Origin: a virus
IMG/VR virus record: IMGVR_UViG_3300031088_000737
Span: 96,001 to 160,000 of that record
DNA length: 64,000 bases
Strand: one strand, 5' to 3'
Position 1 is the first letter of the stretch, and every line of letters starts with the position of its first letter. Below are positions 2,309-21,478 of the stretch, one piece after another. Both the position numbers and the translations under genes were made by a program. Under the pieces are notes generated by a model, which searched no databases, was not told the DNA's origin, and was given only the letters and a program-made list of their open reading frames with translations.

Positions 2309-2392
2309 AAAAAAAAGCTCATAAGTCGGATTGGGGGATAACTTATGAGCCAGTACAGTGGGTATATAACATTATTATTATTATTTGGGGGA
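2309..2392 (-). ncRNA. Candidate small RNA of about 84 nt
   Basis: Lies between a consensus promoter (2398-2426, minus) and a 10-bp hairpin plus T8 (2309-2350, minus). No start codon with an SD follows the predicted transcription start. Confidence 0.55.
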
Positions 2393-2397
2393 CGCTC

Positions 2398-2426
2398 ATT
2401 ATAGCTAAACGATACACAAAGGTCAA
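2398..2426 (-). promoter_or_regulatory. Sigma70 promoter TTGACC-N17-TATAAT
   Basis: Read directly on the minus strand. Confidence 0.75.
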
Positions 2427-17757: not shown

Positions 17758-20283
17758 TTATTGTTTCTCTACATCATTACAGCTTTTACATAACTCATTG
17801 TCGCATAGATGTTCAAAGTAATTCCAACAACGATCACATTTCTTAAAATCATGCTTGAATAACTCAGTTTTATGATATTTAACAACATTCACATTCCCCA
17901 GTAATACAGACAAGACGGTTTGTTGTTCCTTGTTCAAATCCTTGTCTAAGTAAAGTACCGTCTCATTGTTTTTAGACATTACTTTATTGGTTCTACCTTC
18001 TTCAAACAATTTATTCGCTACATCTCTTAGTTCTAAGACTTGATTAAAGCTGTTTTGATCAAAATCAACTACAACGTCATCCAATAACTCTTCCATAAAT
18101 ACACTTAACCCAGAGTAGCTGTTGAGACTTCTGTAGTATTCTTCTGTTGAATAAGGAAGGTAAGTAGACAATAAGACCATTAAATTATGTTGAACATAGT
18201 TTAAAACAGATTGCGTTAATCTTCTTCTTGGTGCGTCAGGAGCTAGACAATATAATCTGTCTTTGTTCGCTTCAAAGTAAAGCACGCTCAATCTATCACA
18301 AAAAGCATACAGAACGCTTAATGCTTCATTAAACTTGTATTCATCACCTAGTTTTAAAACGGTCTTTTTAAGCTCGTTTGTTTCATTGAGCACGTATTTA
18401 TCCAACAAGTCCATGTCTTGTGTGTTTAATACACTTTCGGGTGTGTAATCATATAAGTTTTGCAACATGAACCTGTAAGTGTTTCTAAACTTCTTATACA
18501 TTTCAGTTGCTGCTTGTAATGTGCTTTCTGAATAGGTCAATTCTTTATGATAGTCTTGGTTAAGACACCATAATCTTAATACATCAGGACTATGCTGTTT
18601 CAATAAGTCTTTCAAAGCGACATAATTACCTAATGACTTAGAAAACTTCATACCTTTCGCATCCACTACAAAGCCATGTGTGAATACTTGTTTGTAAGGT
18701 GCTTTATTATTTAAAGCAGTTGATGTCAACAAGGATGATTGAAACCATCCACGGTGTTGGTCAGAACCTTCCAAGTATAAATCAGATTGTGTGGTACCGT
18801 AGTTTCTTTTCATCACAGTCGTATGTGTCATTCCACTGTCAAACCAGACATCAAGTGTTTGAGCAGAGAAGTCATCAGTATAAAGTGATGATAATCCGTT
18901 ATGTTTAACAAAGGTGACCCACGTTCTATATTCAGCAAGAGCTTCTGGGGTTTTATCTTTGGGTAATGGCACGCCCCAAAGTCTGTTCCGTGAAACACAC
19001 CAACTGTTACGAGTAGACAACATGGATGACAATCTATTTTTACCATTGCTCGGGAAGAAAGTTACATGTTCTACTTCATCAAGAGCTTTTTCTTTCACAT
19101 TAGAAAGATCCATGAACCATTCTTTTGAAGCTTTAGAGAACAATGGAGACTTATGACGCCAGCAGTGTGGGTATTCATGTTCTAATTTGGTTAAATTGAA
19201 AACCAGTTGATCGCCTTGTAATTTCTGTAATACGAATGCGGCTGAATCTTTCAAATTCATACCTTGTAGCTCTGGAAAATCAACTGAATCATATTTACCA
19301 TAGTTATCCACATAACTATTAACGTCAAGATGATGAGTTTCGCCCAAATAAAAGTCATCTAGCCCAAAGGACGGAGCCACATGAACAAAACCAGTACCTG
19401 AGTTTTCAACAAAATCTGCTTGAAGTAAAGGTACCATTTTTTTACTGTATGGACTTTGAACATCGAGATTGTCTAATTCAACATCTGTAACGTATTCCAT
19501 TTCTGAACCAAGATCGTCATTTTTCAATCTGACATAATACTTATTATGGGCTTTATTGTAATACTTTGCATAAGTAAAACGTTTATTATACGCAACAGCT
19601 TGGTTGGCTGGTAAGGTATAAGGCGTTGTTGTCCATACAAGTAGATAAGTGTTATCATCCAGTTTGAATTCAACCGTTACGCTGTCGGATGTTTTGACTT
19701 TGTATTCGACCTCAGCTTCCGCTAAGGAAGACTGACAATCTTTACACCAATGAACAGGTCTAAATTTTTGATAGAGATATTCTTTTTCTAACAAACTAAG
19801 AACAGCTTCCATTTCCTCAGCTTCACGGAAGAATTCATTTGTTTTGTAAGACTTATCAAAATCAGCTAACATACCAAACTCTTTTAACTGGGATAATTGA
19901 TTAGCGACTTGTTCATTAGAATACTGGTAACACTGATTGAGGAATTCTTGTTTGTTAGTTTTACCACTATGCAATTTTTCAACGGCTAATTCAACAGGCA
20001 ATCCATGACAGTCAAATCCATTGTTAAAAGGAGCGTAGTAGCCATTGAGGCGTTTAAATTTTAAGACAGTATCTTTCAATACCTTGTTGGTAAAATGACC
20101 CAAATGCAGGTCACCGTTCGCATAGGGAGGCCCATCATGAAGCAAGAATAAAGGCTTATGACGTTGACTTTCTAAAAAGTCTTTCATTTCTTGGCTATTC
20201 CAGCAATCCATATAGCTGGATTTATCCAAAAACTTTTCGTTAAGGTTGAAACTGACTTTTTGCATGTTGAGTGTATATTTCAT
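17758..20283 (-). CDS. ileS: Isoleucyl-tRNA synthetase (bacterial IleRS1-type)
   Basis: DGPPYANGDLHLGH (HIGH) and KFSKSLGN (KMSKS). Editing-domain motifs WTTTPYTL and GTGFVHVAP, plus EGSDQHRGWF and a C-terminal CxxC...CxxC zinc finger. Confidence 0.96.
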   Translation of the reverse strand: MKYTLNMQKVSFNLNEKFLDKSSYMDCWNSQEMKDFLESQRHKPLFLLHDGPPYANGDLHLGHFTNKVLKDTVLKFKRLNGYYAPFNNGFDCHGLPVELAVEKLHSGKTNKQEFLNQCYQYSNEQVANQLSQLKEFGMLADFDKSYKTNEFFREAEEMEAVLSLLEKEYLYQKFRPVHWCKDCQSSLAEAEVEYKVKTSDSVTVEFKLDDNTYLLVWTTTPYTLPANQAVAYNKRFTYAKYYNKAHNKYYVRLKNDDLGSEMEYVTDVELDNLDVQSPYSKKMVPLLQADFVENSGTGFVHVAPSFGLDDFYLGETHHLDVNSYVDNYGKYDSVDFPELQGMNLKDSAAFVLQKLQGDQLVFNLTKLEHEYPHCWRHKSPLFSKASKEWFMDLSNVKEKALDEVEHVTFFPSNGKNRLSSMLSTRNSWCVSRNRLWGVPLPKDKTPEALAEYRTWVTFVKHNGLSSLYTDDFSAQTLDVWFDSGMTHTTVMKRNYGTTQSDLYLEGSDQHRGWFQSSLLTSTALNNKAPYKQVFTHGFVVDAKGMKFSKSLGNYVALKDLLKQHSPDVLRLWCLNQDYHKELTYSESTLQAATEMYKKFRNTYRFMLQNLYDYTPESVLNTQDMDLLDKYVLNETNELKKTVLKLGDEYKFNEALSVLYAFCDRLSVLYFEANKDRLYCLAPDAPRRRLTQSVLNYVQHNLMVLLSTYLPYSTEEYYRSLNSYSGLSVFMEELLDDVVVDFDQNSFNQVLELRDVANKLFEEGRTNKVMSKNNETVLYLDKDLNKEQQTVLSVLLGNVNVVKYHKTELFKHDFKKCDRCWNYFEHLCDNELCKSCNDVEKQ

Positions 20284-20326
20284 TTTGAATCTCCTAGATT
20301 GAGTAATTTAATTTATTTTCGGCAAT

Positions 20327-20360
20327 AAAAAAAGGCACTTGGTTTTGACCGAGTGCCTTT
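20327..20360 (-). terminator. Attenuator terminator upstream of ileS
   Basis: Minus strand AAAGGCACT-CGGTCAAAACCA-AGTGCCTTT followed by a T-run, about 45 nt before the ileS start. Confidence 0.85.
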
Positions 20361-20382
20361 GAATTAACAACAACTTATCCTG

Positions 20383-20445
20383 TTAGCTCATTGGCAACTT
20401 AGGGATAATAATAATGCTGTTTACGAATGTGTTTAAGGTTTTCAT
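20383..20445 (-). CDS. ileS leader peptide MKTLNTFVNSIIIIPKLPMS
   Basis: ATG at 20445 with an upstream GAGA; four consecutive Ile codons ATT ATT ATT ATC; stop codon immediately before the hairpin region. Confidence 0.8.
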   Translation of the reverse strand: MKTLNTFVNSIIIIPKLPMS

Positions 20446-20512
20446 GTTTTATTTAATCTCTTTTAATTAATTTCAATCATATAACAATTGACCGATTAAG
20501 TCAATCTCTATT

Positions 20513-21478
20513 TTAAATAGCTTTAAACAAATCAAGGTTATTTTTCAAATCGACCCTGAATTGATCTTTAACAATGTTGAACAATTGACGAATCCTTTCT
20601 TTGGAAAGACCACACATACCTGCAATGGCTGTTTGATTTTTTGAATCCAAAATATGAATCATCATGTGGTAATGCTCATTGTTTGTTTTATCAAAAAGTG
20701 TATTCAATGAGGTTTGGAAAACTTTTCTTACCACTTGTTCTACATCTTTCATGATAAAGTTTTGTTGCAGTTCATCTTTTACAATTTCTTTAATGATCTT
20801 TTGAGAAGCTGTCATCTTTAAATCAAATTTATCGAAAAGTGCCAACACTTCAACTTTCTTGCTGCTCAATTCGTTGTTATCGCGTTTAATCAGCTCTCTT
20901 TTCAAGAATGAGAGGATATCAAACGTATCTTCTGCGAGTTCTGTTTCATTTTCATCTTGTTCTTTATTGAATTTATACAACTCAATGTCATCACATGTTT
21001 GAACAAATTCTTTTAACAGTTCGTAGGTCAACATGTCTTCGACAATCAAATATTCATAATTAGCCGCAACTAACAATTCACGTCTATTTTTTTCAATGTT
21101 ATCATCGTGCCAACGTCTTTTGAGATCCCTTGACCATTCTTGAAATTTTTTGTCAGTGGCATAACGCAATGGAATACGACTCAAAAAATGTTCTTGCAAC
21201 ATAGGAAAGTAAGCATTCCAATGATCTTTGGTCGAAAGAATACCAGCATTTTCCACAAACGTTTTAATTCTATTTCGCTTAGCTTCATTTTTCTGGTTGG
21301 TTGATGAGTGTGAACGAATCCAGTTCAACAAGGTAACACCGTAGATAAGGTAGTCTTTGGAAGGTAGTTTTCCTTCCTTGGTGATGAAATCGACAGCCGC
21401 ATCATACATTTTCTCCCAACGTTGATCGGGACTTAATGTATTATACTGTTCAGTGCTGAAGGTGGGGTTTAAGTCCAT
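20513..21478 (-). CDS. Helicase-associated (HA)-like repeats plus C-terminal sigma70 region-4-like HTH
   Basis: W..MY....DF..KEGKLP...L.NWI and W..YF..L..H motifs; C-terminal QTAIAGMCGLSKERIRQL. Confidence 0.5.
   Translation of the reverse strand: MDLNPTFSTEQYNTLSPDQRWEKMYDAAVDFITKEGKLPSKDYLIYGVTLLNWIRSHSSTNQKNEAKRNRIKTFVENAGILSTKDHWNAYFPMLQEHFLSRIPLRYATDKKFQEWSRDLKRRWHDDNIEKNRRELLVAANYEYLIVEDMLTYELLKEFVQTCDDIELYKFNKEQDENETELAEDTFDILSFLKRELIKRDNNELSSKKVEVLALFDKFDLKMTASQKIIKEIVKDELQQNFIMKDVEQVVRKVFQTSLNTLFDKTNNEHYHMMIHILDSKNQTAIAGMCGLSKERIRQLFNIVKDQFRVDLKNNLDLFKAI

What the first reader, a model, noticed from the sequence alone, without database searches (positions are those of the whole stretch)
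20327..20445. Isoleucine leader-peptide attenuator controlling a phage-borne ileS
Seen in sequence: a 20-aa leader MKTLNTFVNS-IIII-PKLPMS (ATT ATT ATT ATC) followed by alternative pairings. A protector pairs ATCCCTAAGTTG with CTAACAGGAT. A putative antiterminator pairs AAGTTGCC (20393-20400) with GGCACT in the 5' arm of the terminator. The terminator with its T-run lies about 45 nt before ileS. Established: this is the architecture of ribosome-mediated attenuators (thr, ilv, pheST). Inference: the element expresses its own IleRS only when Ile-tRNA charging fails, for example under host IleRS inhibition, mupirocin-type antibiotics or tRNA-targeting toxins. An intact amino-acid attenuator on a viral aminoacyl-tRNA synthetase is unusual.
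Basis: partly seen in the sequence, partly recalled or inferred. Interest (0 to 1): 0.82.

Follow-up and report, generated by a model that had tools for sequence, protein, structure and literature searches.

The report
Isoleucine-sensing leader switch before ileS
A tiny test gene with four isoleucine codons, wired to a switchable transcription stop, sits in front of an extra isoleucyl-tRNA synthetase gene; other synthetase genes on this giant element and on a 508-kb phage have the same design with their own amino acids, so they are probably switched on only when charged tRNA of that kind runs short.

Summary
A sigma70-like promoter is followed by a 20-codon leader ORF (MKTLNTFVNS-IIII-PKLPMS), a strong hairpin with U7, then the SD and ATG of an 841-aa IleRS 43 nt later.

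A single copy could be chance in 31% GC DNA. Conservation settles it. Every relative of this short IleRS that I fetched (93% to 43% identity, GC 25-66%, different neighbours) keeps a short ORF with an Ile run (IVII in Achromobacter). Each also keeps a strand that pairs with the terminator's 5' arm, and the terminator itself.

A second group of ileS genes, on terminase-bearing huge phages, has the same architecture with a different terminator sequence. None of 30 Bacteroidota chromosomal ileS genes has it.

The control is cognate. In this 181-kb record all three aaRS genes found carry such leaders (IIII-IleRS, DNNDN-AspRS(ND)-like, PLPL-ProRS-like). In a 508-kb phage five do (IIII, LLLL, VVVV, HFHFHF, DD).

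Best reading: a classical ribosome-mediated attenuator specific for Ile-tRNA charging.

Not supported: that this record is a phage (no terminase; related contigs reach 1.9 Mb), and that the enzyme is mupirocin-resistant (it is IleRS1-like).

An earlier first-stage reader of this scan noted the same stretch. An earlier follow-up reported a Leu leader before a tRNA array in this genome.

The parts
20476..20504 (-). Sigma70-type promoter TTGACT-17-TATGAT for the leader-ileS transcript. The -35 hexamer lies in a palindrome, TTGAC-n7-GTCAA.
   Evidence: 10 of 12 matches. Every relative has its own TTGACx-17/18-TAxxxT directly upstream of its leader (sequences).
20383..20445 (-). Leader ORF of 20 codons plus UAA: MKTLNTFVNS-IIII-PKLPMS. 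A weak SD-like AAGAGA lies at 20462..20457.
   Evidence: Relatives have clearer SDs (GGAG 8-11 nt before the ATG in L088, L090, L091).
20404..20415 (-). Control codons: four consecutive Ile codons (ATT ATT ATT ATC). They also form the 5' arm of hairpin P1.
   Evidence: A run of 3 to 5 Ile is conserved in the 20 leaders extracted, except Achromobacter, which has IVII. Codon choice varies (ATT, ATA, ATC).
20382..20402 (-). Antiterminator 5' strand (CUAAGUUGCC..UGAGCUAAC). It starts just after the last Ile codon and includes the leader stop codon.
   Evidence: duplex with 20368..20349, -13.7 kcal/mol, 16 pairs, p = 0.012 against shuffles; 78% of cells paired in 8 relatives against 23-45% when slid. 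One pair runs through A-U, G-U and G-C.
20366..20380 (-). 3' arm of P1 (GGAUAAGUUGUUGUU), which pairs with the Ile codons. P1 acts as an anti-antiterminator: it encloses the antiterminator strand and crosses the antiterminator helix.
   Evidence: MFE. Weak in the window (p about 0.11). Significant (p 0.05 or less) in 11 of 21 leaders, including all 8 of the huge-phage class.
20327..20360 (-). Intrinsic terminator: 9+3 bp stem with one mismatch, CAAA loop, U7. Its 5' arm (20360..20348) is shared with the antiterminator.
   Evidence: -15.7 kcal/mol. The AAAGGCA core is conserved in all proteobacterial-type relatives.
17758..20283 (-). ileS: short IleRS of 841 aa with HLGH, KFSKS, an editing-domain WTTTPYTLP motif and a C-terminal CxxC..CxxC. 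SD AGGAG at 20295..20291.
   Evidence: (TIGR00392 643.8 bits, cut-off 621.4).

Best explanation
This is a ribosome-mediated (leader-peptide) transcription attenuator specific for isoleucine. It sets how much of an accessory IleRS gene is transcribed.

Transcription starts at the promoter at 20504..20476, and a ribosome begins translating the 20-codon leader. Three outcomes follow.

1. Charged tRNA-Ile is plentiful. The ribosome runs to the UAA, which lies inside the antiterminator strand, and masks that strand. The hairpin with U7 forms and RNA polymerase stops 43 nt before ileS.

2. No ribosome is present, or it has left. Hairpin P1 forms between the Ile codons and the segment just after the stop codon. 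P1 locks the antiterminator strand away, so termination again follows.

3. Charged tRNA-Ile is scarce. The ribosome stalls on the four Ile codons, which blocks P1 and leaves the downstream strand free. That strand pairs with the 5' arm of the terminator as the arm is made. The terminator cannot form and ileS is transcribed.

What is shown: the anatomy, its conservation, the co-variation of the antiterminator strand with the terminator between the two leader classes, and the cognate match of leader codons to the enzyme in eight aaRS genes of two elements.

What is inferred: the stalling, the read-through and the physiological trigger.
For: Anatomy.

Conservation of the Ile run, antiterminator strand and terminator:
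- At 93, 87, 67, 66, 63, 62, 60, 58, 53, 47, 48 and 43% IleRS identity, the loci are L086, L085, L088, L090, L091, L092, L251, L093, L173, L174, L248 and L250.
- The N-terminal part of the peptide diverges freely.
- The upstream neighbours differ and are often on the opposite strand. The hairpin is therefore not the terminator of an upstream gene.
- In Achromobacter, 6 of the 7 species genomes that carry the gene keep the leader (the seventh was mis-anchored by my script and not read).

Second class: a group on huge-phage contigs has the same layout with a CCAAGG terminator. Terminase lies nearby in G002 and G004.

Negative control: 0 of 30 Bacteroidota chromosomal ileS genes have a compact Ile leader.

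Antiterminator pairing:
- The duplex beats shuffles at p 0.05 or less in 19 of 21 leaders.
- In a swap test, strands pair with terminators of their own class at about -10 to -14 kcal/mol and with the other class mostly at -3 to -7.

Masked-ribosome folding:
- Free RNA gives the terminator in 20 of 21 leaders.
- A ribosome at the stop codon gives the terminator in 21 of 21.
- With a stall on the first Ile codons, before the 3' arm exists, an antiterminator of 11-18 pairs forms (14 in the window). In the window its energy is -15.5 against -16.0 kcal/mol for the terminator.

Cognate specificity:
- An unbiased scan of the 181-kb record picks 5 genes, 3 of which are the only 3 aaRS genes found. These are IIII-IleRS, DNNDN-AspRS(ND)-like and PLPL-ProRS-like (hypergeometric p = 1.3e-5).
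- The same scan of a 508-kb phage picks 10 genes, 5 of them aaRS-like with matching leaders: IIII, LLLL, VVVV, HFHFHF, DD.
- A further IVVV leader precedes a ValRS-like gene in G306.
Against: - No expression or read-through data exist; everything is comparative and thermodynamic.
- In the window itself P1 is weak (p about 0.11) and its register shifts between relatives.
- Compensatory changes within the window's clade are few and do not exceed the shuffle controls.
- At equilibrium, with the whole RNA present, the terminator still wins even under a stall mask. The switch must therefore be kinetic, as in trp.
- A ribosome stalled on the last Ile codon would cover part of the antiterminator strand (E_AT falls to -9.6). 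Only stalls on the first Ile codons would work well.
- The leader's SD in the window is weak, with 11-nt spacing.
- The host, and hence whether transcription and translation are coupled in it, is unknown.
Confidence: 0.85

Rival explanations
1. Chance. An AT-rich spacer happens to contain a short ORF with ATT repeats, and the hairpin is an ordinary terminator or insulator with no sensing role.
For: In 31% GC DNA such ORFs do arise. Another IIII mini-ORF plus hairpin lies at window 2343..2399. The fold z-score is only -2.7.
Against: The in-frame Ile run, the pairing strand and the terminator persist down to 43% protein identity, in 56% and 66% GC genomes and with different neighbours. Cognate leaders occur on the other aaRS genes (p = 1.3e-5). 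The control of 30 chromosomal ileS genes is empty.
Confidence: 0.02
2. The conserved RNA (GUUGCC..GCURACRGG plus hairpin) is sensed directly by a factor, for example IleRS itself as in thrS-type autoregulation, an uncharged tRNA as in a T-box, or a small molecule. On this reading the ORF is incidental.
For: ileS is T-box controlled in Firmicutes and Actinobacteria (PMC1262725). The motif after the Ile run is well conserved within the clade.
Against: No Rfam family reaches its threshold, and no T-box, riboswitch or amino-acid leader family appears among the eight weak matches listed up to E = 10. The conserved motif is accounted for by pairing with the terminator arm and changes with it between classes. 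A factor-binding RNA does not explain why the only invariant coding feature is a run of the cognate amino acid in frame, for six different amino acids.
Confidence: 0.05
3. Nascent-peptide or drug-dependent arrest. The IIII-P/H/Y peptide stalls the ribosome in response to an antibiotic or metabolite, as in erm or tna leaders, rather than in response to tRNA-Ile charging.
For: The residues after the run are semi-conserved within clades (YMLP, HRLNPW). Resistant aaRS copies are often inducible.
Against: Between clades only the Ile run is conserved. Leaders for other aaRS genes replace the run with their own amino acid, which fits codon sensing and not a specific arrest peptide. The enzyme is type-1-like with no resistance signature found.
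Confidence: 0.05

Closest known systems
pheM-pheST attenuator of Escherichia coli (Phe-rich leader peptide before phenylalanyl-tRNA synthetase). From my own knowledge; pheST is also named as the proteobacterial example in PMC1262725.
   Same: A leader-peptide transcription attenuator placed before an aminoacyl-tRNA synthetase gene. It has a run of cognate codons, an intrinsic terminator and a competing antiterminator.
   Different: The amino acid and enzyme differ (Ile and IleRS), and there is no sequence similarity. Here the gene is an accessory, short IleRS on a giant element, on phages, or as a rare second copy in Achromobacter. The leader stop codon lies inside the antiterminator strand. 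The first hairpin excludes the antiterminator by topology (its loop holds the strand) rather than by sharing a strand with it.
Classical amino-acid operon attenuators (trpL, hisL, leuL, ilvL/ivbL, thrL)
   Same: The same three-state logic: a stall at cognate codons favours the antiterminator, while no stall or no translation favours the terminator. The ilv leaders also use Ile codons.
   Different: Those control biosynthetic operons in chromosomes. None of the Rfam leader families matches here. This one controls tRNA charging capacity, not amino-acid synthesis.
T-box riboswitches of ileS (Firmicutes; translational T-boxes in Actinobacteria, PMC1262725)
   Same: The same regulated gene and the same physiological signal (low charged tRNA-Ile). 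The output is also terminator against antiterminator.
   Different: A T-box binds uncharged tRNA directly and needs no translation. Here there is no T-box fold or sequence, and a translated Ile-run ORF takes its place.
Predicted leader peptides before trpS and leuS in Streptomyces (PMC1262725)
   Same: Computationally predicted cognate leader attenuators on aaRS genes.
   Different: They concern other enzymes, in high-GC chromosomes, as single cases. Here there is a whole set (Ile, Asp/Asn, Pro; Leu, Val, His) on mobile giant elements.

Membership tests
Ribosome-mediated (leader-peptide) transcription attenuators | A short translatable ORF with its own start and ribosome-binding site, directly downstream of a promoter and upstream of the regulated gene | tested here: met
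   Promoter; ORF. The SD is weak in the window and clear in relatives.
Ribosome-mediated (leader-peptide) transcription attenuators | Tandem codons for the amino acid that matches the regulated gene, conserved across relatives | tested here: met
   A run of 3-5 Ile codons in the 20 extracted ileS leaders, except Achromobacter, which has IVII. Other aaRS genes carry their own cognate codons.
Ribosome-mediated (leader-peptide) transcription attenuators | An intrinsic terminator between leader and gene, with no promoter after it | tested here: met
   Hairpin of -15.7 kcal/mol plus U7. No promoter-like site in the 43 nt before ileS.
Ribosome-mediated (leader-peptide) transcription attenuators | An alternative antiterminator helix that uses the terminator's 5' arm and is supported by co-variation | tested here: met
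   19 of 21 at p 0.05 or less; own class against the other class; 78% paired against 23-45% slid. Compensatory changes within the clade are few.
Ribosome-mediated (leader-peptide) transcription attenuators | Geometry such that a stalled ribosome frees the antiterminator and a ribosome at the stop codon blocks it | tested here: met
   The core of the antiterminator strand (UGCC, UCCUUGG) starts 6-11 nt after the Ile run where the duplex is compact. In six leaders of the window's clade, the window included, weak pairs extend it up to the run itself. In the window's clade the stop codon lies inside or next to the strand. A stall on the last Ile codon is borderline.
Ribosome-mediated (leader-peptide) transcription attenuators | Read-through rises when the cognate charged tRNA is limiting and depends on leader translation | not testable with these tools
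   Needs reporter, in-vitro or Term-seq experiments.
T-box leader (Rfam RF00230) | Specifier loop, T-box sequence and stem I fold recognised by the covariance model | tested here: not met
   cmscan of 19800..21000 at E up to 10 gave no T-box or any amino-acid leader family.
Mupirocin-resistant IleRS (MupA / MupB / IleRS2) | Reaches the curated NCBIfam cut-off, or is closest to IleRS2 structures | tested here: not met
   MupA 278 and MupB 252 bits against cut-offs of 1900. The closest PDB entries are type-1 IleRS (487 and 448 bits) against IleRS2 (290 bits). Drug sensitivity itself was not tested.
Bacteriophage genome (for the window's record) | Terminase or other virion hallmark genes on the record | tested here: inconclusive
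   No Terminase_6N or 6C hit in the 181 kb. Cargo is phage-like: Pnkp/RNA ligase, ClpA-like, HNH. The record is a fragment, and syntenic contigs of relatives reach 1.9 Mb.

The most novel reading that the evidence does not exclude
Giant AT-rich elements and huge phages run a distributed 'charging-sensing' control. Each element-borne aminoacyl-tRNA synthetase gene has its own cognate leader-peptide attenuator. Cases seen here: Ile, Asp/Asn and Pro in this record; Ile, Leu, Val, His and Asp in a 508-kb phage. The element would then top up host translation only for the amino acid whose charged tRNA is running short during infection. This would explain how and when phage aaRS genes are used, which the huge-phage literature I could read leaves open (PMC7162821 has no mention of attenuators or leaders).
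Probability: 0.6. Interest if true: 0.8.

Novelty: new member of a known kind. Interest (0 to 1): 0.68.

Why it matters
Huge phages and related giant elements carry many aaRS and tRNA genes, but when and why they use them is unknown. A cognate attenuator on each gene gives a concrete, testable answer. The element reads the host's charged-tRNA status codon by codon and makes only the enzyme that is limiting.

It also adds the first leader-peptide attenuator family for ileS that I could find. ileS was known to be controlled by T-boxes.

The same leader-plus-gene module occurs as a rare second ileS in Achromobacter (7 of 62 species genomes). There it could act as a backup enzyme induced when the main IleRS fails.

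The compact, modular switch (about 120 nt) may also be useful as an amino-acid-specific sensor part.

Tried and rejected
- Metagenome scan with the IleRS alignment. The patterns were generic and returned only housekeeping IleRS at 31-35% identity.
- Pattern scan for the post-Ile motif, chosen without Ile codons. In viral contigs it gave one chance hit in GC-rich coding DNA. In genome contigs it gave 78 hits, all chance matches in unrelated, mostly GC-rich genomes. This leader type was not found in the GTDB species genomes with that exact pattern.
- First leader screen of the 181-kb record, requiring a run of one residue. It missed the DNNDN and PLPL leaders and produced many C-terminal tails of upstream genes. 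It was replaced by a scan that requires an antiterminator.
- An MMM mini-ORF at G000:7059..7106 turned out to be the end of a coding region, with no MetRS downstream.
- Relatives of the AspRS-like, ProRS-like and ValRS-like genes in viral contigs: none beyond self. Conservation of those three leaders could therefore not be tested.
- The 1.9-Mb and 450-kb contigs of relatives could not be searched for a second ileS or for ribosomal or virion genes, because they are not held.
- Reading P1 as one fixed set of homologous pairs was rejected. The register differs between members, so P1 was tested sequence by sequence.
- The idea that the hairpin terminates the upstream HA-domain gene was rejected, because of the promoter in between and the divergent neighbours in relatives.

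Full report
**1. What is there**

The feature is on the minus strand. Reading 5' to 3':
- A promoter-like TTGACT-17-TATGAT at 20504..20476.
- A weak SD-like AAGAGA.
- A 20-codon ORF at 20445..20383, MKTLNTFVNS-IIII-PKLPMS, with Ile codons ATT ATT ATT ATC at 20415..20404.
- A 9+3 bp hairpin of -15.7 kcal/mol followed by U7 (20360..20327).
- AGGAG at 20295..20291 and the ATG of an 841-aa ORF at 20283.

The ORF is an isoleucyl-tRNA synthetase. It scores 643.8 bits on TIGR00392 against a cut-off of 621.4. It has HLGH, KFSKS, the editing-domain WTTTPYTLP motif and a C-terminal CxxC..CxxC. It is about 80-100 residues shorter than usual.

No promoter-like site lies in the 43 nt between the U-run and ileS.

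**2. Is it more than chance?**

Not from one sequence. The record has 31% GC, ATT repeats are common, and another IIII mini-ORF followed by a hairpin exists at window 2343..2399. The leader fold has z = -2.7. The test therefore had to be comparative.

**3. Conservation**

A protein search found about 90 clusters of this short IleRS type. I fetched DNA for twelve of them. Every one has its own sigma70-like promoter, a short ORF with an Ile run, a strand complementary to the terminator's 5' arm, and a hairpin with a U-run, all upstream of ileS.
- The window's clade (93-58% identity) has ..S/N-IIII-Y/S/T/P...
- L173 (53%) has MTKST-IIIII-DY.
- L174 (47%) has five Ile.
- L248 (48%, GC 56%, on a 1.46-Mb contig) has TAT-III-TT.
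- Achromobacter marplatensis (43%, GC 66%) has S-IVII-R.

The N-terminal part of the peptide is not conserved. Ile codon choice varies (ATT, ATA, ATC).

The upstream neighbours differ and are often divergently transcribed. The hairpin is therefore not someone else's terminator.

Six of the 7 Achromobacter species genomes that carry the gene show the leader. In the seventh my script anchored on the wrong start, so it was not read.

**4. A second class on true phages**

Among 36 ileS loci on IMG/VR contigs, nine from low-GC contigs have M..N-IIII-H/R.. leaders with the same layout. They have Bacteroidota-type TAnnTTTG promoters and a different terminator sequence (CCAAGG). Two of these records carry a large terminase within about 15-20 kb of ileS: G002, 508 kb with CheckV completeness 97%, and G004.

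As a control, none of 30 Bacteroidota chromosomal ileS genes has a compact Ile leader.

**5. The switch**

*Antiterminator.* For 21 leaders I located the terminator and asked whether the 28 nt after the Ile run pair with the terminator's 5' arm better than shuffles do. They do in 19 of 21 at p 0.05 or less.
- In the window the duplex is 16 pairs in five short helices, at -13.7 kcal/mol, from 20402..20382 to 20368..20349.
- It also explains the conserved GAGCURAC motif, which pairs with GUYA just upstream of the terminator.
- One of these pairs runs through A-U, G-U and G-C among relatives.
- The leader's stop codon lies inside this strand.

*Swap test.* Antiterminator strands pair with terminators of their own class at about -10 to -14 kcal/mol and with the other class mostly at -3 to -7. 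Within the AAAGGCA class the terminators share a core, so the swap test does not discriminate there.

*Within-clade statistics.* The antiterminator is 78% paired against 23-45% for slid controls, but compensatory changes are few and do not exceed the shuffle controls.

*P1.* A first hairpin pairs the Ile codons with the segment that starts 1-7 nt after the stop codon in most leaders. In L174, L248 and L250 it lies inside the longer leader ORF, and in L173 it is not detectable. P1 encloses the antiterminator strand and is topologically exclusive with the antiterminator. It is significant (p 0.05 or less) in 11 of 21 leaders, including all eight of the phage class. It is weak in the window (p about 0.11), and its register shifts between members.

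*Masked-ribosome folding.*
- Free RNA gives the terminator in 20 of 21 leaders.
- A ribosome at the stop codon gives the terminator in 21 of 21.
- With a stall on the first Ile codons, before the 3' arm is made, an antiterminator of 11-18 pairs forms (14 in the window).
- In the window that state has -15.5 kcal/mol against -16.0 for the terminator.
- With the full RNA at equilibrium the terminator still wins, so the decision must be kinetic, as in trp.
- A stall on the last Ile codon would partly cover the strand.

**6. Cognate specificity**

This is the strongest argument for amino-acid sensing. I wrote a scan that asks only for the following, with no condition on the peptide: a short ATG ORF that is closed upstream, a strand pairing with a terminator arm, a hairpin with a T-run, and then an ORF of at least 150 aa.

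*In the 181-kb record* it picks five genes. Three of these are the only aaRS genes I found there:
- IleRS, with IIII.
- A non-discriminating-type AspRS (NF003483, 427 bits against a cut-off of 353), with ..A-DNNDN-F... Asp and Asn codons are exactly the two tRNAs such an enzyme charges.
- A short ProRS (TIGR00409, 338 bits against 306.7), with ..R-PLPL-M.. and a perfect 8-bp UUGGGCGU/ACGCCCAA antiterminator.

The hypergeometric p is 1.3e-5. The other two picks are weak, and one lies inside the ClpA-like ORF.

*In the 508-kb phage G002* the same scan picks ten genes, five of them aaRS-like with matching leaders:

| Leader | Gene |
|---|---|
| IIII | IleRS |
| LLLL | LeuRS-like |
| VVVV | ValRS-like |
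| T-HFHFHF-E | HisRS-like |
| ..A-DD-C.. | AspRS(ND)-like |

Another phage contig (G306) has N-IVVV-S before its ValRS-like gene. G003 has L-VVV-T, without a clear U-run.

I could not test conservation of the non-Ile leaders, because relatives could not be fetched.

**7. What the enzyme and the replicon are**

*Enzyme.* It is nearest to bacterial type-1 IleRS: 8c9e at 487 bits and S. aureus 1ffy at 448 bits, against 290 bits for IleRS2 entries. It is far below the MupA and MupB cut-offs. Nothing therefore points to mupirocin resistance.

In Achromobacter marplatensis the short IleRS sits beside a canonical ileS (a 970-aa frame, 861 bits), so it is an accessory copy. It is sporadic: 7 of 62 Achromobacter species genomes, and 1 of 201 sampled Burkholderiales, that one being the query genome itself.

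*Replicon.* The record is labelled a provirus by IMG/VR. It has no terminase hit. It carries phage-like cargo: a Pnkp/RNA-ligase fusion, a ClpA-like ATPase and an HNH nuclease. Contigs with the same gene order reach 450 kb and 1.9 Mb, larger than the 735-kb phage that PMC7162821 reports as the largest described. I could not search those contigs. 'Phage-borne' is therefore unproven for this record, though the design clearly exists on real huge phages.

**8. Comparison with what is known**

It works like a classical leader-peptide attenuator. The closest case is pheM-pheST of E. coli. Leaders before trpS and leuS have been predicted in Streptomyces, and ileS itself is known to be controlled by T-boxes (PMC1262725).

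No Rfam family reaches its threshold, and no T-box, riboswitch or amino-acid leader family is among the eight weak matches listed.

Full-text searches found no report of an Ile leader on ileS or of leader peptides on phage aaRS genes. The huge-phage paper that reports up to 15 aaRS per genome does not mention attenuators or leaders (PMC7162821). The library is incomplete, so novelty is 'not found', not 'proven absent'.

**9. Verdict**

It is a new member of a known kind of switch. The interest lies in the setting: a set of cognate attenuators on the translation genes of giant elements and huge phages.

An earlier first-stage reader of this scan noted the same stretch (e1-5772540). An earlier follow-up reported a Leu leader before a tRNA-Leu array in the same genome (e1-5772532). 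I did not re-test that, but it fits the picture.

Noticed in passing
G000:C1:5308-6746 (about 89 kb before the window start; outside the window): A non-discriminating-type AspRS (421 aa) is preceded by a promoter, an SD and the leader MTIRFIA-DNNDN-FAQLSVGLSVA. A strand GAGUGUC pairs with the terminator AAAGGCACUC-acga-GAGUGCC-U7. Asp and Asn codons match the enzyme's two tRNA substrates.
   Followed up: partly
G000:C1:62223-63526 (about 33 kb before the window start; outside the window): A short ProRS (376 aa, apparently without the insertion/editing domain) is preceded by the leader MKTNIALFKTIR-PLPL-MLGV. The leader's end, UUGGGCGU, is perfectly complementary to the terminator arm ACGCCCAA.
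   Followed up: partly
G002 (IMGVR_UViG_3300049793_000366, 508 kb): leaders at about 51619, 127981, 388117, 396545 and 415056: A terminase-bearing huge phage has cognate leaders before five aaRS-like genes: IIII-IleRS, LLLL-LeuRS-like, DD-AspRS(ND)-like, VVVV-ValRS-like and HFHFHF-HisRS-like.
   Followed up: partly
L252:996-2522, L288:14103-15365, L254:997-2364, L275:820-2163: The phage ValRS-like and LeuRS-like proteins are only 421-509 aa. They match the valS and leuS models in pieces that skip the CP1 editing domain, so they appear to be editing-domain-less class I synthetases. All score below the curated cut-offs.
   Followed up: no
window 20488-20504 (minus strand): The -35 hexamer of the leader promoter lies in a palindrome, TTGAC-ttaatcg-GTCAA. 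Its arms are kept and its centre varies in L085 and L086. It may be an operator for a second layer of control.
   Followed up: no
window 2343-2399 (minus strand): A second mini-ORF with IIII (MSVPQ-IIII-MLYTHCTGS) is followed by a -14.6 kcal/mol hairpin and T-run. No gene lies downstream on that strand. The hairpin is probably the terminator of the convergent Pnkp/RNA-ligase gene that ends at 2259. I take it as a chance look-alike.
   Followed up: partly
L250 and L259-L265 (Achromobacter genomes): The short IleRS with its IVII leader is a sporadic accessory copy beside a canonical ileS. In A. marplatensis it lies next to a gene with a VasX_N (type VI secretion toxin) domain.
   Followed up: partly
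Ile codons of the leaders (window 20404-20415; L088-L251, L173, L174, L184-L208): Most relatives keep at least one ATA codon in the run, read by the lysidine-modified minor tRNA-Ile. The window, L085 and L086 have ATT there instead. The ancestral design may sense both tRNA-Ile species.
   Followed up: no
contigs behind L085 (1,917,244 bp), L249 (1,463,929 bp) and L086 (450,007 bp): Relatives of this locus, with the same gene order (YqeY, MsrA, LplT-acyltransferase, HA-domain protein, ileS, DUF4116), sit on metagenome contigs far larger than the 735-kb phage that PMC7162821 reports as the largest described. The nature of the replicon is open.
   Followed up: partly
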